Sequence record: PV730302.1
Direction: 5' to 3' (one strand)
DNA length: 64,000 nucleotides
Origin: a phage
Every line of letters starts with the position of its first letter. The stretch's first letter is position 1. This document shows positions 13,979-18,022 of this stretch, one piece after another. A model generated the notes under the pieces. The model was not told where the DNA came from, did not search any database, and worked only from the letters and a program-made list of their open reading frames with translations. The position numbers were made by a program, and so were the translations under genes.

Positions 13979-14173
13979 TTATCCTCGCTTTAAACATTTG
14001 ATTACAGACAGTTCACCACCCATGCGAACGTCTTCAGTTCCATCGACCCATAAGACGGTGTAGGCTTCTTTAATAGTATCATTACCTAATTTAAAAGCAG
14101 GTAGAACCTTGGAAATCATTCCGGGAATACCTACACCTTTTAACTGAACCGTTTGCGATAAGAATAATTTCAT
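13979..14173 (-). CDS. hypothetical protein
   Basis: 64-aa ORF, same strand, abutting neighbours. Confidence 0.3.
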   Translation of the reverse strand: MKLFLSQTVQLKGVGIPGMISKVLPAFKLGNDTIKEAYTVLWVDGTEDVRMGGELSVIKCLKRG

Positions 14174-14174
14174 G

Positions 14175-14483
14175 TTAGCCTCGGTATTTCATTTGGAAGC
14201 AATGCTGCTCGTTACATTCAATAAAGAACTTGCGGTCTGCAGCAGAAATAATAATTCGTTCGTCTTGACGGGCGTCCGTTTTGATAGATTTCATATCATA
14301 AGACACTTTATCATACGGTATATAGATTTTATACACGTCGCCATTCTGGGCGAAATCAACACGGAATAGCTCTAGACCTATTAAATCAGTTACAAGACTG
14401 TTTATAGCATAGAACCCGTCAAGCTGACTAGTAGGCAAACAGTACCATTTACCTTCAATAAACTCTAACATAATTAACCTCAA
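14175..14483 (-). CDS. hypothetical protein
   Basis: 102-aa ORF; stop/start overlap with neighbours. Confidence 0.4.
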   Translation of the reverse strand: MRLIMLEFIEGKWYCLPTSQLDGFYAINSLVTDLIGLELFRVDFAQNGDVYKIYIPYDKVSYDMKSIKTDARQDERIIISAADRKFFIECNEQHCFQMKYRG

Positions 14484-14767
14484 TATCTCATCTGAAAGCC
14501 GTGTGATTTAACATTACCACCATAGATGTCAGAGGTATTGACTTCACGGGCGACACTTGGGTCGATATTGATATCATGGTTGAGCTTAGTGATTGCTAGG
14601 GTATCACGACCATTAACAGTACGGAATTCTACAGGGCATACAACATCGGCATAAGCCTTAATAGATTCACGAGTAGGTTGTTTGTCGGCAGGAACGTCTT
14701 TACCTGCTTTAGAGAAAACAACTTCACAGAAATTTTTACGAGTATCAAAATAAGTGGTCATAAACAT
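14480..14767 (-). CDS. hypothetical protein
   Basis: Track ORF to 14800; the first 11 codons are encoded by a GGAGGC-UUCG-GCCUCC hairpin (14783..14798); likely start is ATG 14765-14767 preceded by GAGGAAA. Confidence 0.4.
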   Translation of the reverse strand: MFMTTYFDTRKNFCEVVFSKAGKDVPADKQPTRESIKAYADVVCPVEFRTVNGRDTLAITKLNHDINIDPSVAREVNTSDIYGGNVKSHGFQMRY

Positions 14768-14808
14768 AATATTTTCCTCAAAGGAGGCCGAAGCCTCCAT
14801 TTTTAAGA

Positions 14809-15174
14809 TTAGATATCGAATTCGTTCAGAACTACATCAAAGATTGCTTCCAGGTGTTCAGGTTTAGCTCGGTTGCTCAGGATGTGACGAATCCAAGTTT
14901 TAACCAGAAGCTTACGATTAACACCGTTCCAGCAAGGATGGGTACCTAAATCACGTTGACGGAAATCGTCATCTAAAGCGATTTTAAAAGTAGAACCTTC
15001 CATTGTGATTGAAACCGTAATACCATTTTCAAAGCGCATATAAACGTAGTTAGGAGTCATGCACTGTTCGATTTCGCACACGGTGCCGTTGTTGTGTTTC
15101 CACAGGCAAATAACTTCAGAAGAACCAGCGATACCGTTAGAAACATATTTACGTTCGAAGTTGATGTAGTTCAT
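14809..15174 (-). CDS. hypothetical protein
   Basis: 121-aa ORF with its own upstream promoter-like cassette. Confidence 0.4.
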   Translation of the reverse strand: MNYINFERKYVSNGIAGSSEVICLWKHNNGTVCEIEQCMTPNYVYMRFENGITVSITMEGSTFKIALDDDFRQRDLGTHPCWNGVNRKLLVKTWIRHILSNRAKPEHLEAIFDVVLNEFDI

Positions 15175-15215
15175 TTTATTCTCCAGTTTGTTTTCGTATT
15201 ATTTGGTACAGGTCT

Positions 15216-15244
15216 ATAATAACACAACCTGTACCAAAGTAAAC
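15216..15244 (-). promoter_or_regulatory. early sigma70-like promoter (GTTTAC-N17-TATTAT) with -10 in loop of a 9-bp-stem hairpin
   Basis: Minus strand: GTTTAC, 17-nt spacer, TATTAT; flanked by ggtacaggt/acctgtacc inverted repeat (15205..15235); upstream of ORF starting at 15174. Confidence 0.5.
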
Positions 15245-15248
15245 TGTT

Positions 15249-15617
15249 TTATGCAACTTTAATCCAATTATCTAAATTTAATTCACCTTTAGCTTTCATT
15301 TTTTCAATCAACTCATCAGCAGTAGTGCGACCATTTTGATACCATGTAACATCTTCAGAATAACCAGTTTCTTCATCTTCATAAGTCTTACAACGAATCT
15401 TACCAAGAATCAAAGTTTTCAGTTCGTAGGTATCACCGGTAAAAAAGTTTGTTACTATAATTTTCCAAGAGAAGTCATCAGAAGGACCTTCCGGAGTCAT
15501 GCAACCTACAAATTCAAATTGTTCTTTGTACAAGTGCCATTGCATTTCTTTGGTTTCGATAGCTTTATAACCGTCGTGGTCTTTACCTTTGATGTATGAG
15601 TTAAGATTGATTTTCAT
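15249..15617 (-). CDS. hypothetical protein
   Basis: 122-aa ORF; its 5' leader is a near-identical copy of the leader of ORF 14809..15174. Confidence 0.4.
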   Translation of the reverse strand: MKINLNSYIKGKDHDGYKAIETKEMQWHLYKEQFEFVGCMTPEGPSDDFSWKIIVTNFFTGDTYELKTLILGKIRCKTYEDEETGYSEDVTWYQNGRTTADELIEKMKAKGELNLDNWIKVA

Positions 15618-15658
15618 TTTATTCTCCAGTTTGTTTTCGTATTATTTGGTACATGTCT

Positions 15659-15687
15659 ATAGTATCATGCCTACCGGAGATGTACAC
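15659..15687 (-). promoter_or_regulatory. early promoter-like element (GTGTAC-N17-TACTAT)
   Basis: Minus-strand -35/-10 hexamers with 17-nt spacing, directly downstream of a terminator hairpin and upstream of ORF start 15617. Confidence 0.45.
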
Positions 15688-15704
15688 CCTTTTTTTAAAG
15701 ATTT

Positions 15705-15734
15705 AGAAACAAAAATGGGACTCCGAAGAGTCCC
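15705..15734 (-). terminator. Rho-independent terminator (GGGACUC-UUCG-GAGUCCC + U-rich tail)
   Basis: 7-bp GC-rich stem with UUCG tetraloop on the minus-strand transcript followed by AUUUUUGUUUCU; begins 5 nt after the stop of the small ORF 15740..15901. Confidence 0.6.
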
Positions 15735-15739
15735 ATAAC

Positions 15740-15901
15740 TTATGCCTGAGGCTTACCAAAGCAAGCAGCATCTGCACGCAATACTGCACGAGCACGAGCT
15801 TGAAGCTTATCAACTACCTGATTGATACGCTTGTTGGACGCACGCTTGTAACCAGCGCGTTTAGAGGTACCGTCAACTACTTTAACTTCTTTCTTAGCCA
15901 T
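15740..15901 (-). CDS. small basic protein, 53 aa (absent from ORF track, under 60 aa)
   Basis: Hand translation: MAKKEVKVVDGTSKRAGYKRASNKRINQVVDKLQARARAVLRADAACFGKPQA; clean ATG..TAA ORF with a dedicated terminator immediately downstream; RBS weak (GAGA). Confidence 0.4.
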   Translation of the reverse strand: MAKKEVKVVDGTSKRAGYKRASNKRINQVVDKLQARARAVLRADAACFGKPQA

Positions 15902-16164
15902 TTTTAAATCTCTTAAATTAGGATGCAGGACTTATTGGCGTTGCCTGCGCAAGCCCTCAAGGGGAACATAGGTTTCGGATATTTAACGACAGGATAACCA
16001 TAAACCTCGTCATCATACCAACCACGACTTAGACAGATAACCTTTTTCTGACGCGTGATAGTACAAAATACATTCAAGAGGTACACCGTAAAACTGTTGG
16101 GGTCTTAAAACTATAATGATTCGCAAATCATTAATCAAACAGTTCGACGGCTCCTCGATTTAAC

Positions 16165-16413
16165 TTACTTCAGGGTAATAATAAAATGACGTACTGCTTT
16201 ACGAGCTGCTGAAGCCAAAGGCTTAGCAAATTTCAGTTCATCTTTAGCTTCCAGTTCAGCAGCCAGAGTAGCCTGAGCTGGGTTCAGATGTTTGAAATAA
16301 CGCAGGATTTCCAGTGCTTCGGCTTCAACATCAATAGATGCGCCGTAGTTTTCGTGACCGTTGTTCCAAGCGTTGCGTTGCAGTTCAAGAGCGTGATTCA
16401 GATGTTTGTTCAT
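16165..16413 (-). CDS. rIII: rIII-like protein (by size and position)
   Basis: 82 aa, same length as T4 rIII, located immediately downstream of gene 31 as in T4. Sequence identity not verified. Confidence 0.4.
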   Translation of the reverse strand: MNKHLNHALELQRNAWNNGHENYGASIDVEAEALEILRYFKHLNPAQATLAAELEAKDELKFAKPLASAARKAVRHFIITLK

Positions 16414-16559
16414 TTTAAATTCTCAATTCGAGATAAAGATTGGTGGACACGTTCTTCTGAATTTCACTTCCTTTCGGCAAGTCTCTCAGTTGTAGTCCAC
16501 CGCTTAGGATTCTCCGGTTAACTAACTAGTCCGGCAGCCAATCCATATTATTATTTATA

Positions 16560-16883
16560 TCACTTATAAAGACACGGAATAGCTTTATAGTGACAGGTAA
16601 CGAATTTTTGTTTAATTTCTTTAGGTTGTTTAATACCTAATGCAACCAACGGATGAGGCACGTTAGCAATCTTACCAACAGGAAGTGGAGTCAAATCACC
16701 TACTTCACAAAAATCTTCAGGGACATCAGGTCCTACAGAATAAATTTCACAAAGTTCAGGGATTTCACCTTGATGAAGTTTGCCAATAACGATACCAGAT
16801 GCAGTAGTTTCTTCATCACCAGCTTGTTTTGGTTCGGAAACGAGAATAACATATTCTCCGACCGCTTTAATAGGAAGTTCCAT
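16560..16883 (-). CDS. 31: co-chaperonin GroES homolog gp31
   Basis: 107 aa; [38 protein letters not shown] and C-terminal [23 protein letters not shown] match T4 gp31 as recalled. Confidence 0.9.
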
Positions 16884-16941
16884 ATTTAATCCATATTGTT
16901 TTGTTGATAGATTAATAATAACACGCTATTCTTAAAGCATA

Positions 16942-17241
16942 TTACAGGACAAGCAGAGTTTCAGTCTGAAGGCCGTTAATGGAAATCAGCTTATCGAAAC
17001 GGAATGAGCGCCAATCACTGGCCTTAGTATCAAATACTCTGATATAATTAACAGGTTCTTTATTGGCTTCTGGTCCAGGGGCCTGGACTTCTTTATACGG
17101 AAGCAGGTCTAAGTCACGTGTACAAGTCATACGACGGGCACTACCATCAGCCTTTTCAAACAGGACTTCATGAGTACCGACAGACAAAATAGTCTTGACT
17201 TTTTCACGGAGACGAATTGTTTCTTGTTCAGTTAAAATCAT
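16942..17241 (-). CDS. hypothetical protein (T4 31.1 position)
   Basis: 99-aa ORF downstream of gene 31. Confidence 0.4.
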   Translation of the reverse strand: MILTEQETIRLREKVKTILSVGTHEVLFEKADGSARRMTCTRDLDLLPYKEVQAPGPEANKEPVNYIRVFDTKASDWRSFRFDKLISINGLQTETLLVL

Positions 17242-17243
17242 AA

Positions 17244-17477
17244 TTACCCCAGAATAGTTTTTATAGTGGTTGCATTACGCTCTTTTAGAGCATTTAAGAG
17301 CCTATGGCAATTATCAAGAATAGGTACTGTTTTGTAATTCATGTTGGCATAAACCCACTCAGATTTATAGTACGATTTCCATCGAGAGAAAAAGTACTTT
17401 TTGTATTCTACTGAATAGGCTACTAAGCTTTCGCCTTTTGAGTTCAGACCTGAAAACTTAACTAGACGAAATTTCAT
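17244..17477 (-). CDS. hypothetical protein
   Basis: 77-aa ORF; start abuts stop of cd. Confidence 0.35.
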   Translation of the reverse strand: MKFRLVKFSGLNSKGESLVAYSVEYKKYFFSRWKSYYKSEWVYANMNYKTVPILDNCHRLLNALKERNATTIKTILG

Positions 17478-18022
17478 TATTCACCACAATAGTTTTGAAT
17501 TGATTCCCAGTTCAAAGAACGGAGACCTGTACGGTTATACTGGATAACTTCGATGCCTGATTCACGGAGGATATCGTCCCACCCTTCAGGATTTCGGTCA
17601 TAGAGCTCAGCATAAACCAATGTTTTAATTCCAGACTGCGCAATAGACTTAGCACAATCCGCGCAAGGAGATAACGTCACGTACATCGTAGCGCCATCAA
17701 TAGAACTTCCGGTACGAGCTGCAAACAAAATAGCATTCAGTTCAGCATGGATTTCATTTTTGGATGACCATGCAGCGTGAGCCATACGGTGTTCTTTAAG
17801 AAGAACAGATTTATGCGACATCCGCGTCGGGTCGTACACGACACGAGTCCAGTCCTGTTCCACTGCGTGGTCACAACAGTTCACACCACCGGACGGTGAA
17901 CCGTTATACCCTGTAGAAATAATGCGGCCATTCTTTTCAATAACCGCACCCACTTTCCATGAACAACATTTTGATTCCTGAGAAATCAGATAGGCAATCT
18001 GAAGATATGTACTTGCTTTCAT
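17477..18022 (-). CDS. cd: dCMP deaminase
   Basis: 181 aa; HAELNAI ... SPCADCA zinc-binding cytidine/deoxycytidylate deaminase signature; T4 position after pseT. Confidence 0.85.
   Translation of the reverse strand: MKASTYLQIAYLISQESKCCSWKVGAVIEKNGRIISTGYNGSPSGGVNCCDHAVEQDWTRVVYDPTRMSHKSVLLKEHRMAHAAWSSKNEIHAELNAILFAARTGSSIDGATMYVTLSPCADCAKSIAQSGIKTLVYAELYDRNPEGWDDILRESGIEVIQYNRTGLRSLNWESIQNYCGE

What the first reader, a model, noticed from the sequence alone, without database searches (positions are those of the whole stretch)
15705..15901. Unannotated 53-aa basic protein gene with a dedicated terminator
A clean ATG-to-TAA ORF (MAKKEVKVVDGTSKRAGYKRASNKRINQ...) is below the 60-aa ORF-track threshold. 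It is followed within 5 nt by a strong GGGACUC-UUCG-GAGUCCC plus U-tract terminator, and preceded by a roughly 260-nt region without long ORFs that contains a promoter-like GTGTAC-N17-TACTAT. The composition (Lys/Arg/Ala-rich) suggests a nucleic-acid-binding or ribosome-associated small protein.
Basis: seen in the sequence. Interest (0 to 1): 0.5.

Follow-up and report, generated by a model that had tools for sequence, protein, structure and literature searches.

The report
T4 gene 30.9 with structured leader
The 53-codon reading frame is a real gene, the counterpart of phage T4 gene 30.9, which is already annotated in related phages but has no known function. The more unusual feature is the 263-base spacer in front of it, which holds folded RNA elements conserved far better than the neighbouring genes.

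Summary
ORF 15901-15740 (- strand, 53 aa) is followed 5 nt later by a 9-bp UUCG-loop intrinsic terminator and preceded by a 263-nt spacer.

It is not unannotated in the public record. The window is a Dhakavirus (T4-type phage), and the ORF is the ortholog of T4 gene 30.9, lying between rIII and 30.8. It is annotated as such in IME08 and Bp7.

It is truly coding: dN/dS is 0.29, changes concentrate at third codon positions, and every length variant is in frame. It has about 1000 phage homologs and none in cellular genomes. The protein has a disordered Lys/Ala tail, an invariant SKRAGYKR..N.R motif and one helix. It matches no characterised family, and its function is unknown.

The spacer is non-coding but 96-98% identical to T4, against 58-83% for the flanking genes. 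It holds a long hairpin and an H-type pseudoknot, both supported by covariation, and no Rfam family matches.

Most likely this is a small early nucleic-acid-binding protein translated from a structured leader that controls its mRNA stability or translation. Both the binding and the control are inferred, not shown.

The parts
15740..15901 (-). Gene 30.9 ortholog: 53-aa basic protein (stop codon included).
   Evidence: ORF. PHROG 1427, E 4e-27. Annotated as 30.9 in IME08 and Bp7 at the same position. tblastn finds 1001 phage records. dN/dS 0.29. AlphaFold2 gives a disordered residues 1-27 and a helix at 28-48, mean pLDDT 72.
15910..15914 (-). Shine-Dalgarno-like AAGAG, 8 nt before the ATG.
   Evidence: Read from the sequence. 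T4 has AAGAG at the same place.
15705..15736 (-). Intrinsic terminator: 9-bp stem with a UUCG loop (15736-15715), then a U tract.
   Evidence: Terminator scan. Present after the gene in all 32 distinct loci, with different but paired stems.
15659..15687 (-). Early promoter of gene 30.8 (GTGTAC-N17-TACTAT, preceded by TGA and an A tract). Together with the terminator it forms a terminator/promoter (PeSL-type) cassette.
   Evidence: Pattern scan, sequence, PeSL concept (PMC4122927).
16058..16086 (-). Early-promoter-like GTGTAC-N17-TACTAT inside the spacer. Would give a monocistronic 30.9 transcript starting near 16051.
   Evidence: Same hexamers as the 30.8 promoter. It is one of 20 such sites on the - strand, against 2 on the + strand. 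It lacks the upstream A tract and the correctly spaced TG. Its -10 is absent from T4.
16070..16161 (-). Module M1: long imperfect RNA hairpin (stem 16156-16078) directly after the rIII stop. Its 3' arm overlaps the -35 hexamer of the spacer promoter.
   Evidence: RNAalifold gives 25 pairs, 5 of them with compensatory changes. G.U 49 against A.C 6, so the structure belongs to the sense strand. 97.8% identical to T4.
16023..16057 (-). Hairpin 'Mins' (CACG..CAGA-AAAAGGTTA-TCTG..CGTG). Present in the window, absent from T4.
   Evidence: Minimum-free-energy fold. The inner stem CAGA/TCTG is replaced by CAGC/GCTG in L018 and L029. In L029 the same hairpin sits as the loop of another stem. No statistics were done.
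15967..16016 (-). Module A: H-type pseudoknot. P1 is 16011-16005 with 15993-15988. P2 is 16002-15996 with 15974-15968. The conserved linker is GTTAAATATCC.AAA.
   Evidence: Covariance model R1 gives 73.4 bits, E 6e-14, with exactly one copy per locus in 53 loci. It gives 0 hits in 678 kb of unrelated viral DNA. 82% of cells are paired. Covariation score is 0.347, against 0.145 +/- 0.016 for shuffles (0 of 500 as high) and 0.06-0.13 for slid controls. In the window itself only 4 of the 7 P2 pairs form.
15923..15967 (-). Module C: short hairpin (15963-15961 with 15956-15954) plus stem GCAGG/CCTGC (15948-15944 with 15929-15925) enclosing GCCAATAAG.
   Evidence: Other phages have a different paired stem at the same place after GGGCTTG: GGGAGC/GCTCCC, GGGAAC/GTTCCC, GGTGGAG/CTCCACT, GAACTGG/CCAGTTC. 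Statistics are weak: one covarying pair in the alignable subset, and single stems are not above shuffles. RNAalifold prefers a competing fold.
16165..16413 (-). rIII (lysis-inhibition accessory protein), the upstream neighbour in the same transcription direction.
   Evidence: PHROG 1457, E 1e-42. Annotation in relatives.

Best explanation
What is shown:
- The ORF is the Dhakavirus ortholog of T4 gene 30.9, a phage-only gene under purifying selection.
- It is the last cistron of the rightward-to-leftward unit cd-31.2-31.1-31-rIII-30.9, which ends at a conserved intrinsic terminator.
- That terminator and the early promoter of 30.8 behind it make a terminator/promoter cassette of the PeSL type.
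- The 263-nt spacer upstream is non-coding. On the sense strand it carries a long hairpin (M1) and an H-type pseudoknot (A), both supported by covariation. A further hairpin (Mins) and a hairpin pair (C) are less well supported.

What is inferred:
- The gene is transcribed early. One route is read-through from promoters upstream of rIII. In this phage a second route is probably the spacer's own early-type promoter (16086-16058), which T4 lacks.
- The structured leader sets the stability and/or translation of the 30.9 message. The pseudoknot and hairpins may serve as binding sites for a protein, possibly gp30.9 itself, in the manner of the T4 gene 32 leader pseudoknot.
- The protein has a disordered Lys/Ala-rich tail, the invariant motif SKRAGYKR..N.R and one amphipathic helix. 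It most likely acts by binding nucleic acid, with RNA or the translation machinery more likely than DNA. The reasons are the conserved linkage to rIII, whose product binds ribosomal protein S1, and the RNA-rich context.

My estimates for the separate steps:
- Real gene and 30.9 ortholog: 0.97.
- Functional terminator: 0.9.
- Spacer encodes selected RNA structure: 0.8.
- Spacer promoter active: 0.5.
- Protein binds nucleic acid: 0.55.
- Autogenous control through the leader: 0.2.
For: Identity and synteny:
- The close relatives PSD9, IME08 and Bp7 annotate the same ORF, and IME08 and Bp7 name it 30.9.
- T4 has the order rIII, 244-nt gap, 30.9, 30.8.
- PHROG 1427, E 4e-27.
- A distant metagenomic T4-like contig keeps the order cd-31-rIII-(one ORF)-30.9-...-ligase.

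Coding:
- dN/dS 0.29, excess of third-position changes, all lengths in frame.
- 115 homologs among 5.8 billion clustered proteins.
- 24 cluster representatives among 1.84 billion.
- None in 185,579 bacterial and archaeal species genomes.

Terminator: conserved with paired variants.

Early expression:
- The T4 30.9 transcript is classed as early (PMC9697503 Table S2).
- Distant homologs are monocistronic units. Each has a consensus sigma-70 promoter (TTGACT-N17-TATACT with an A tract), a leader of about 70 nt with a hairpin, a Shine-Dalgarno sequence, the gene and a terminator.
- The spacer promoter matches the phage's own early-promoter pattern.

Structured leader:
- M1, A and C are 96-98% identical between the window and T4. 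The genes are less conserved: gp31 77.7%, rIII 82.9%, 30.9 68.3% and 30.8 57.6%.
- Single-base indels rule out coding.
- Pseudoknot covariation, M1 compensatory pairs, and the G.U excess in M1 on the sense strand.
- The covariance model finds one copy per locus, always in this spacer, and none in control DNA.
- The modules are single copy in the 64-kb window.

Protein shape: a disordered basic N-terminal part plus one helix; invariant S13 K14 R15 A16 Y18 K19 N23 R25 R38.

rIII link to translation: RIII binds ribosomal protein S1 (PMC9409239).
Against: - No experiment or homology shows what gp30.9 binds. There is no match in Pfam, NCBIfam, PADLOC or PDB sequences.
- The protein was not detected in the T4 proteome study. 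A Lys/Arg-rich 6-kDa protein is hard to see after trypsin, which is my own reasoning.
- The folding energy of the whole spacer is no better than shuffled sequence (z -0.54).
- In the window and in T4 only 4 of the 7 P2 pairs of the pseudoknot form.
- G.U against A.C counts do not decide the strand for module A (7 against 8).
- Module order and content differ between phages. Module A can lie up to about 300 nt from the start codon, which is awkward for a fixed translational operator.
- The near-identity of the modules between genera could reflect recent lateral exchange rather than constraint.
- The spacer promoter lacks an A tract and a properly spaced TG, and is missing from T4.
Confidence: 0.6

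Rival explanations
1. The conservation of the spacer is a DNA-level phenomenon. The modules would be recombination or regulatory cassettes of the PeSL kind (terminator-like stem-loops plus early promoters) that are exchanged laterally among co-infecting T4-type phages. On this view their near-identity and shuffled order reflect mobility, not a role in 30.9 expression.
For: - Module order and presence differ between phages, and the same hairpin appears in different contexts.
- M1 overlaps a promoter-like site.
- The region lies in a hyperplastic stretch where 30.8-30.6 content varies.
- PeSLs are documented to mediate modular shuffling (PMC4122927; PMC2839356).
- Modules are 96-98% identical, against 58-83% for the genes, as expected after recent transfer.
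- L038 carries the exact reverse complement of the L040 hairpin.
Against: - M1 has 49 G.U against 6 A.C pairs, and module B 33 against 7. This fits a transcribed sense-strand RNA and not a DNA hairpin.
- The pseudoknot needs two crossing helices that both covary, which a promoter/terminator cassette does not explain.
- The modules are single copy in the window and confined to this one spacer in every locus. PeSLs are dispersed repeats.
- Module A has no promoter or terminator features.
Confidence: 0.2
2. gp30.9 is a ribosome-associated or translation-modulating peptide. It would work with the RIII-S1-RegB axis, and the leader elements (A-rich pseudoknot) would be S1 or ribosome binding sites rather than sites for gp30.9.
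For: - rIII and 30.9 are neighbours in one transcription unit in 39 of the 40 viral loci; in the fortieth (L017) the contig ends before rIII.
- RIII binds ribosomal protein S1 (PMC9409239).
- S1 selects pseudoknots and A-rich sequences in SELEX, as stated in PMC1702504.
- The protein is small, basic and largely disordered, like many ribosome-bound peptides.
- From my memory only: the TSK...R(K/R)(S/T)(N/H) stretch resembles the N-terminus of bL32.
Against: - No ribosomal-protein family reaches E <= 10 for any of the 34 family members in Pfam or for the three members scanned against NCBIfam.
- Nothing in PDB sequences.
- There are no binding data.
- Distant homologs are not next to rIII.
Confidence: 0.2
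3. gp30.9 is a DNA-binding, histone-like early protein. Its Lys/Ala-rich tail resembles H1-type tails. It would act on the host nucleoid or on phage DNA, and the leader RNA structures would be unrelated stability elements.
For: - The N-terminal MAKQAKAKKAVEKK-type low-complexity tail and the high positive charge.
- Early expression from strong promoters in distant homologs.
Against: - No similarity to HU, H-NS, Hc1 or other DNA-binding families.
- The invariant part is the SKRAGYKR..N.R motif, not the tail. The tail varies in length and sequence.
Confidence: 0.12
4. Module A, alone or with C, is a ligand-sensing riboswitch. Its H-type pseudoknot with an A-rich third loop has the general architecture of preQ1-I or SAM-II aptamers, and it would control 30.9.
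For: - Two crossing helices with conserved unpaired nucleotides (CGTTAAAT, AAA).
- Location in a 5' leader.
Against: - No Rfam family matches at E <= 1, riboswitch classes included.
- The element is 55 to about 300 nt from the ribosome binding site, with no conserved expression platform.
- A small basic protein of unknown role gives no hint of a ligand.
Confidence: 0.05
5. The ORF is incidental: the 15705-16161 region would be one non-coding RNA, and the 53-codon frame is not translated.
For: - The protein was not detected in the T4 proteome study.
- The surrounding RNA is highly structured.
Against: - dN/dS 0.29, excess of third-position changes, and only in-frame length changes.
- A conserved start context and Shine-Dalgarno sequence.
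- The amino-acid motif is conserved down to 45-55% identity in phages whose DNA no longer aligns.
- The CDS is less conserved at the DNA level (68%) than the true non-coding modules (96-98%).
Confidence: 0.02

Closest known systems
Bacteriophage T4 gene 30.9 (NP_049823, 58 aa; UniProt P17310 'Uncharacterized 11.1 kDa protein in Gp30-rIII intergenic region'; PHROG 1427)
   Same: - Same position between rIII and 30.8, on the same strand.
- Same MAK start.
- Same SKRAGYKR..N.RINQ..K...RARAVLR.DA..FGK core (69.8% identity over 43 residues by tblastn).
- Same terminator directly after the stop.
- Same long spacer upstream.
   Different: - 53 aa instead of 58, with a shorter Lys/Ala tail.
- The window has a 53-nt insert in the spacer (-10 hexamer plus hairpin) that T4 lacks.
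- The window lacks T4's first element (M0) after rIII.
T4 gene 32 mRNA leader pseudoknot (autogenous translational control by gp32). Recalled from the literature, not examined here.
   Same: A T4-type phage mRNA leader with an H-type pseudoknot upstream of the ribosome binding site of a nucleic-acid-binding protein gene. This makes it a plausible model for how module A could work.
   Different: - No sequence relation was seen, and none was tested beyond Rfam.
- Module A is not at a fixed distance from the start codon.
- No evidence that gp30.9 binds it.
PeSL cassettes (promoter-early stem-loop) of T4-type phages (PMC2839356, PMC4122927)
   Same: - The terminator stem-loop after 30.9 followed by the early promoter of 30.8 is this kind of composite element.
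- M1 plus the spacer promoter has the same stem-loop-plus-promoter layout.
- The region is hyperplastic, with modules shuffled between phages.
   Different: - PeSLs are short, dispersed repeats. M1, A and C are single copy, confined to one spacer, longer, and carry sense-strand RNA covariation, including a pseudoknot.
Autoregulated ribosomal-protein leaders (for example the rpsO/S15 pseudoknot)
   Same: A small basic RNA-binding protein encoded behind a structured leader with a pseudoknot. This serves only as a model for the mechanism.
   Different: - The only Rfam S15-leader match was a chance-level hit in another locus (L031, 20.5 bits against a gathering score of 39.5, E 0.7).
- gp30.9 matches no ribosomal protein family.

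Membership tests
T4 gp30.9 family (PHROG 1427) | Significant sequence similarity to T4 gp30.9 and to the family profile | tested here: met
   phrog_1427 E 4.3e-27 over residues 1-53. tblastn to T4 and T6 gives 69.8% over residues 11-53. Profile search finds 115 homologs.
T4 gp30.9 family (PHROG 1427) | Conserved position: downstream of rIII, upstream of 30.8, same strand | tested here: met
   Window order is cd, 31.2, 31.1, 31, rIII, ORF, 30.8. The same order is seen in PSD9, IME08, Bp7 and T4. rIII was found upstream in 39 of 40 viral loci; in the fortieth the contig ends first.
T4 gp30.9 family (PHROG 1427) | Protein-coding selection on the frame | tested here: met
   dN/dS 0.29; codon-position differences 4047/2936/7126; CDS lengths all divisible by 3.
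Intrinsic (Rho-independent) terminator | G+C-rich stem-loop directly followed by a U tract on the transcribed strand | tested here: met
   9-bp stem with 5 G-C pairs, UUCG loop, then TTTTTGTTT. -15.2 kcal/mol, and conserved with paired variants.
Intrinsic (Rho-independent) terminator | Transcripts end there in vivo | not testable with these tools
   Needs 3'-end mapping (Term-seq).
PeSL terminator/promoter cassette | Stem-loop terminator adjacent to a strong sigma-70-like early promoter | tested here: met
   Terminator at 15736-15705 and promoter GTGTAC-N17-TACTAT at 15687-15659, with TG and an A tract. Definition from PMC4122927.
PeSL terminator/promoter cassette | Dispersed repeated copies that mediate recombination | tested here: inconclusive
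   About 20 early-promoter-like sites on the - strand. Sequence repetition of the cassette itself and any recombination were not examined.
T4-type early promoter (site in the spacer, 16086-16058) | GT(T/G)TAC -35 hexamer, 16-18 nt spacer, TAnnnT -10 hexamer | tested here: met
   GTGTAC-N17-TACTAT. The hexamers are identical to those of the 30.8 promoter.
T4-type early promoter (site in the spacer, 16086-16058) | Upstream A tract and TG one base before the -10 hexamer, as in the other sites of this phage | tested here: not met
   The upstream sequence is cagttttacg, and TG abuts the hexamer without the spacer base.
T4-type early promoter (site in the spacer, 16086-16058) | Conservation in relatives | tested here: not met
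   The -10 hexamer and the following hairpin are deleted in T4 and in L030, L034 and L036. They are present in L007-L011, L013 and L032.
H-type RNA pseudoknot (module A) | Two crossing helices, each kept by compensatory changes | tested here: met
   P1 pair 12-33 is UA18/AU17/GC1 and pair 13-32 is CG24/GC8/UA4, with no unpaired cells. P2 pair 23-52 is GC27/AU9. Covariation score 0.347, against shuffles at 0.145 (0 of 500 as high) and slid controls at or below 0.129. Caveat: I anchored the 3' arm of P2 on the end of the A run, a sequence rule and not a pairing rule.
H-type RNA pseudoknot (module A) | Forms in the RNA | not testable with these tools
   Needs chemical probing. The window's own P2 has only 4 Watson-Crick pairs.
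Any Rfam 15 family (riboswitches, leaders, sRNAs, ribozymes) | Match to a curated covariance model | tested here: not met
   No match at E <= 1 in window 14000-18000. Only three chance-level hits in 8 related loci.
tRNA / tmRNA | ARAGORN detection | tested here: not met
   None in window 15000-17000 or in 10 related loci. No similarity to T4 rnaC or rnaD.
Ribosomal or other characterised small basic protein families | Profile match (Pfam, NCBIfam, PDB sequences) | tested here: not met
   0 Pfam families for the window protein, and no consistent family among the 34 members at E <= 10. NCBIfam gives only a 15.5-bit SpoIIID hit against a cut-off of 111.5. Best PDB E-value is 0.44.
Anti-phage defence system proteins (PADLOC; holds defence, not counter-defence, models) | Match to a PADLOC model | tested here: not met
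   One 12.8-bit hit at E 0.012 for one distant member only.

The most novel reading that the evidence does not exclude
The rIII-30.9 spacer of T4-type phages may be an array of previously undescribed structured RNAs. The candidates are pseudoknot A, hairpin M1 and, in other phages, the 135-nt module B. They would form a functional unit with the small basic protein encoded just downstream. Either gp30.9 is their cognate RNA-binding protein (autogenous control or a small ribonucleoprotein), or the RNAs act on their own on host RNA or translation factors. Either reading would explain why they are held at 96-98% identity across genera whose genes have drifted to 58-83%.
Probability: 0.2. Interest if true: 0.7.

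Novelty: already known. Interest (0 to 1): 0.38.

Why it matters
The gene itself adds nothing new. It is one more copy of a conserved T4 'hypothetical' gene, and calling it unannotated would be a mistake.

Two things make the locus worth a note.

First, 30.9 is one of the most widely kept tiny early genes of T4-type phages. It has about 1000 phage homologs and none in cells. In distant relatives it has its own consensus promoter and terminator. No function, no fold family and no published study was found in the open literature searched. That makes it a cheap and well-defined target: the peptide can be synthesised and the gene is easy to delete.

Second, the spacer in front of it has long been listed simply as an intergenic gap. 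It contains RNA structures with real covariation that no Rfam family covers, and they are conserved more strictly than the neighbouring genes. If these prove functional, they would add cis-acting or stand-alone RNAs to a phage whose RNA biology is considered well mapped.

Tried and rejected
- **Coding potential of the spacer.** The 57-aa GTG ORF (15913-16086) and the 41-aa TTG ORF have no Pfam or PHROG hit. T4 differs by three 1-nt indels within module A, so the frames are not kept. The conserved ATGATG before P1 opens ORFs of 2 to 34 codons with unrelated peptides, and it is absent in some phages. I rejected it as a uORF.
- **Rfam**, **ARAGORN** and **similarity to T4 rnaC/rnaD**: nothing.
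- **Thermodynamic test of the spacer:** z -0.54 on the sense strand and -1.21 on the antisense strand, which is not informative.
- **Module C statistics:** only one covarying pair in the alignable subset. Single stems are not better than shuffles. RNAalifold proposes a competing GGGCUUG/UAAGUCC pairing without covariation. I kept it only as 'suggestive'.
- **TAAG[AT]C enrichment:** 3 observed against 0.11 expected. The pattern was chosen after looking, and the unbiased 6-mer scan does not survive multiple testing.
- **Protein function by homology:** Pfam, PHROGs, NCBIfam, PADLOC, PDB sequences, an exhaustive profile search and a bacterial-genome scan gave family membership only. No fold search was run, because a single predicted helix cannot give a meaningful match.
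- **Pattern scan of viral contigs** with the 14-nt core of module A returned only chance matches: the covariance model found 0 hits in the 80 of 120 returned loci that were scanned. This is useful only as a negative control.
- **Literature:** 9 searches found no study of 30.9 function and no description of the spacer RNAs. Driukas & Nivinskas 2003 (Biologija) and Truncaite et al. 2006 (Virology) are cited by others but are not held in the library. Miller et al. 2003 is not held either.
Full report
**1. What is at the coordinates**

On the - strand an ATG at 15901 opens a 53-codon frame that ends at TAA 15742-15740. Five bases later comes GGGACTC-TTCG-GAGTCCC. The scan extends it to a 9-bp stem at 15736-15715, followed by TTTTTGTTT (-15.2 kcal/mol). 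Upstream, 263 nt (15902-16164) separate the start codon from the stop of an 82-aa gene. The description is accurate.

**2. Where the window comes from and what the ORF is**

An 821-nt query across the locus matches 786 phage records. The best are Dhakavirus phages (PSD9, IME08, Bp7, QL01, WG01) at 98-99% identity. The gene order is that of T4: dCMP deaminase cd, 31.2, 31.1, the co-chaperonin 31, rIII (PHROG 1457, E 1e-42), the ORF, then 30.8 (Pfam PF06019, E 2e-43).

Public records annotate the ORF. PSD9 lists it as ORF19, and IME08 and Bp7 as 'similar to bacteriophage T4 gp30.9'. T4 itself has 30.9 (58 aa) 244 nt downstream of rIII. The ORF hits PHROG 1427 (function unknown) at E 4e-27. So the gene is known and annotated. 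It was 'unannotated' only for a 60-aa ORF filter.

**3. Is it really coding?**

tblastn finds the frame in 1001 phage records from Escherichia, Klebsiella, Shigella, Enterobacter, Yersinia, Salmonella, Serratia, Citrobacter and Pectobacterium phages.

Over a 36-codon core in 32 distinct sequences, mean dN is 0.235 and mean dS is 0.822, a ratio of 0.29. Differences by codon position are 4047, 2936 and 7126. All eight CDS lengths are multiples of three.

In a T4 transcriptome and proteome study the 30.9 transcript is classed as early and the protein is listed as not detected (PMC9697503 Table S2). A 6-kDa protein this rich in Lys and Arg would yield few usable tryptic peptides. That point is my own reasoning.

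**4. The protein**

A profile search of 5.8 billion clustered proteins gives 115 homologs, all from phages or metagenomes. An exhaustive search of 1.84 billion cluster representatives gives 24. A scan of one genome for each of 185,579 bacterial and archaeal species finds none.

The invariant residues are S13 K14 R15 A16 Y18 K19 N23 R25 R38, which form the motif SKRAGYKR..N.R. They are preceded by a Lys/Ala-rich tail of variable length and followed by a helix. AlphaFold2 with the family alignment predicts residues 1-27 without regular structure and a single helix at 28-48 (mean pLDDT 72).

Nothing matches in Pfam, NCBIfam, PADLOC or PDB sequences. That the protein binds nucleic acid is a reasonable inference from its composition and shape, and nothing more.

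**5. The transcription unit**

Every one of 32 distinct loci has a strong hairpin plus U tract directly after the gene. The stems differ but remain paired. So 30.9 closes a transcription unit in all these phages.

In the window the terminator is followed by GTGTAC-N17-TACTAT, with TGA and an A tract, in front of 30.8 (15687-15659). Terminator plus early promoter is the composite cassette that Krisch and colleagues named PeSL (PMC4122927; PMC2839356).

The pattern GT(T/G)TAC-N16-18-TAnnnT occurs 20 times on the - strand of the window and twice on the + strand. It is therefore a meaningful early-promoter signature for this phage.

The site in the spacer has the same two hexamers as the 30.8 promoter. 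It lacks the A tract and the correctly spaced TG. Its -10 hexamer is deleted in T4 and several other phages. It may give this phage a monocistronic 30.9 transcript, but it is not a conserved feature.

Distant homologs, at 45-55% identity and in other genomic contexts, are clear monocistronic early units. Each has TTGACT-N17-TATACT with an A tract, a leader of about 70 nt with a hairpin, GGAGAA, the gene and a terminator (contexts).

**6. The spacer is not empty**

Between the window and T4 the genes are 57.6-82.9% identical at the DNA level: gp31 77.7%, rIII 82.9%, 30.9 68.3%, 30.8 57.6%. Three stretches of the spacer are far more conserved:
- M1 (16161-16070): 97.8%.
- A (16016-15967): 96%.
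- C (15967-15923): 97.8%.

They are not coding. T4 and the window differ by single-base indels inside module A, and the ORFs that open there are unrelated between phages.

In 39 viral loci with rIII found through the protein, the rIII-30.9 gap is always long, 120-422 nt. The gap is a mosaic of recurring modules whose presence and order vary.

**7. Evidence that the modules are RNA structures**

*Module A.* It folds as an H-type pseudoknot. P1 is GAC(G)AGG with CCTGTC. P2 lies in the loop of P1 and pairs with the bases after a conserved GTTAAATATCC.AAA linker.

A covariance model built on P1 finds exactly one copy in each of 53 loci, always in this spacer and in the gene orientation (window 15959-16021, 73.4 bits, E 6e-14). 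It finds none in 678 kb of unrelated viral DNA selected to contain the 14-nt core.

On 36 distinct sequences 82% of cells are paired. Pairs such as 12-33 (UA 18, AU 17, GC 1) and 23-52 (GC 27, AU 9) never break. The covariation score is 0.347, against 0.145 +/- 0.016 for shuffles (0 of 500 as high) and 0.06-0.13 for slid partners.

Two caveats apply. I anchored the 3' arm of P2 on the end of the A run. In the window and T4 only four of the seven P2 pairs form.

*M1.* RNAalifold gives a 25-pair hairpin with five compensatory pairs. G.U pairs outnumber A.C by 49 to 6. This places the structure on the sense-strand RNA rather than in DNA or in an antisense transcript.

*Module C.* The evidence is only qualitative. 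At least five different paired stems occupy the same place after GGGCTTG in different phages, but statistics are weak and a competing fold exists.

*Other checks.* The whole spacer does not fold better than shuffled sequence (z -0.54), so the case rests on covariation. No Rfam 15 family matches. No tRNA or tmRNA is found. There is no similarity to T4 rnaC or rnaD.

**8. How it most likely works**

Shown:
- A conserved, selected small gene.
- It is the last gene in its transcription unit.
- It has a conserved terminator.
- It lies behind a non-coding stretch with covarying RNA helices.

Inferred:
- Early transcription by read-through from promoters upstream of rIII, and here perhaps from the spacer promoter.
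- A leader whose structures set message stability or translation.
- A protein that binds nucleic acid.

The nearest mechanistic model is the T4 gene 32 leader pseudoknot, or a ribosomal-protein leader, in which the encoded protein binds its own message. I give that specific idea about 0.2.

The conserved pairing of 30.9 with rIII, whose product binds ribosomal protein S1 and restrains RegB (PMC9409239), makes an RNA or translation role somewhat more likely than a DNA role.

The main rival for the spacer is lateral exchange of regulatory cassettes at the DNA level. Shuffled module order and the near-identity across genera fit that view. The G.U bias, the pseudoknot and the single-copy confinement to one spacer argue against it as the whole story.

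**9. Comparison with what is known, and novelty**

As a gene this is a member of the T4 gp30.9 family, and all tested membership features are met. It is already known, with its function unknown.

The terminator and the terminator/promoter cassette are standard T4-type features.

The structured modules of the spacer are not in Rfam. They were not found in nine literature searches of the open-access library, which lacks the two Nivinskas-laboratory papers most likely to mention the region. I can therefore say only that no description was found.

**10. Verdict**

The finding is accurate in its description and ordinary in its main claim: it is a known small phage gene.

Interest is 0.38 overall. 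It would be higher (about 0.7) if the leader RNAs and gp30.9 prove to be a functional RNA-protein unit, which I rate at about 0.2.

Noticed in passing
L006:951-1085 (IGR offset 103-237); also L012, L014-L016, L020-L025, L027, L028, L031, L039-L044. Absent from the window and from T4.: Module B is a 132-144-nt element (CGGCAAGTGCATG...GCTAACGGTGTGCAACAGATAAGAG) inserted in the rIII-30.9 spacer of many Klebsiella, Enterobacter, Serratia and Dhaka-type phages, either before or after module A. RNAalifold gives 40 pairs, 18 with compensatory changes. G.U 33 against A.C 7. No Rfam family and no tRNA match.
   Followed up: partly
window 15923-16161 against T4 (L005:3046-3270): The non-coding modules M1, A and C are 96-98% identical between a Dhakavirus and T4, while the flanking genes are 58-83% identical. 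Either the constraint is extreme or the spacer was exchanged laterally in recent times.
   Followed up: partly
rIII-30.9 spacers of L015, L016, L019, L033 against T4: A 30-nt element (GGTGATTCGCTACCTTAAGTGCGGCTAGAAAA, 'M0') sits directly after rIII in T4 but after module A in other phages. The window lacks it. Module order is permuted between phages.
   Followed up: no
L038 and L040 spacers, about 35 nt upstream of the start codon: L038 carries GAGAGGTCTTACACCTCTC where L040 has GAGAGGTGTAAGACCTCTC, which is the exact reverse complement of the same hairpin.
   Followed up: no
window 16107-16102, 16031-16026, 15934-15929 (- strand): TAAG[AT]C occurs three times in the spacer (0.11 expected from the window). 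Each copy sits on the 3' side of a loop next to a stem. Related CAAGAAC and GTAAGAC motifs occur in leader hairpin loops of distant homologs. The pattern was chosen after looking and is not significant in an unbiased 6-mer scan.
   Followed up: partly
Spacers of L015-L017, L019-L029, L031, L033, L037-L044, just upstream of the start codon: Most non-T4-type relatives have CTCC, then 4-6 nt, then GGAAGA in front of the ATG (L044 has CCTC-tatt-GAGG). This is a possible hairpin that occludes the Shine-Dalgarno sequence. The window and T4 have AAGAG without the CTCC partner.
   Followed up: no
GenBank records PQ341120, PP496997, KY290975, ON720975, OR539220; UniRef entry for Klebsiella phage PMBT63: Several records name the 30.9 homolog '1,4-alpha-glucan (glycogen) branching enzyme'. 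This is implausible for a protein of under 100 aa and is probably a propagated annotation error.
   Followed up: no
T4 30.9: P0033 (97 aa, UniProt 'Uncharacterized 11.1 kDa protein') against NP_049823 (58 aa); T6 BBF63627 (72 aa): The old 97-aa T4 entry starts at the ATGATG of module A. It runs into 30.9 only if one G of GAGGGCTT is missing, which points to an early sequencing frameshift. T6 and several phages are annotated from an upstream in-frame ATG (MPISPAFSFKREFI-MAKQ...) that lies inside module C. The conserved MAK start with its Shine-Dalgarno sequence is the likely true start.
   Followed up: partly
window - strand, 20 sites from 62455 to 6412: Early-promoter-like GT(T/G)TAC-N16-18-TAnnnT sites, most with catGaTAyTAT and a following agac.tatcaac, occur 20 times on the - strand and twice on the + strand. 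This gives a ready map of the early transcription units of the window.
   Followed up: no
L045, L046, L073; L049, L050, L068: Distant 30.9-like genes sit as isolated promoter-gene-terminator units in unrelated contexts. One is next to Shufflon_N-like proteins, HMG-CoA reductase and UbiA. Another is near an RLIG1 RNA ligase. The host phages were not identified.
   Followed up: no
IME08 (L002:1754-2811) against the window: IME08 and several relatives carry extra DNA in this stretch (the match spans 1311 nt instead of 817), including a different 30.8-region gene. In some relatives, for example JS98-type L006, the extra DNA is module B in the spacer. The 30.9-30.6 stretch is hyperplastic.
   Followed up: no
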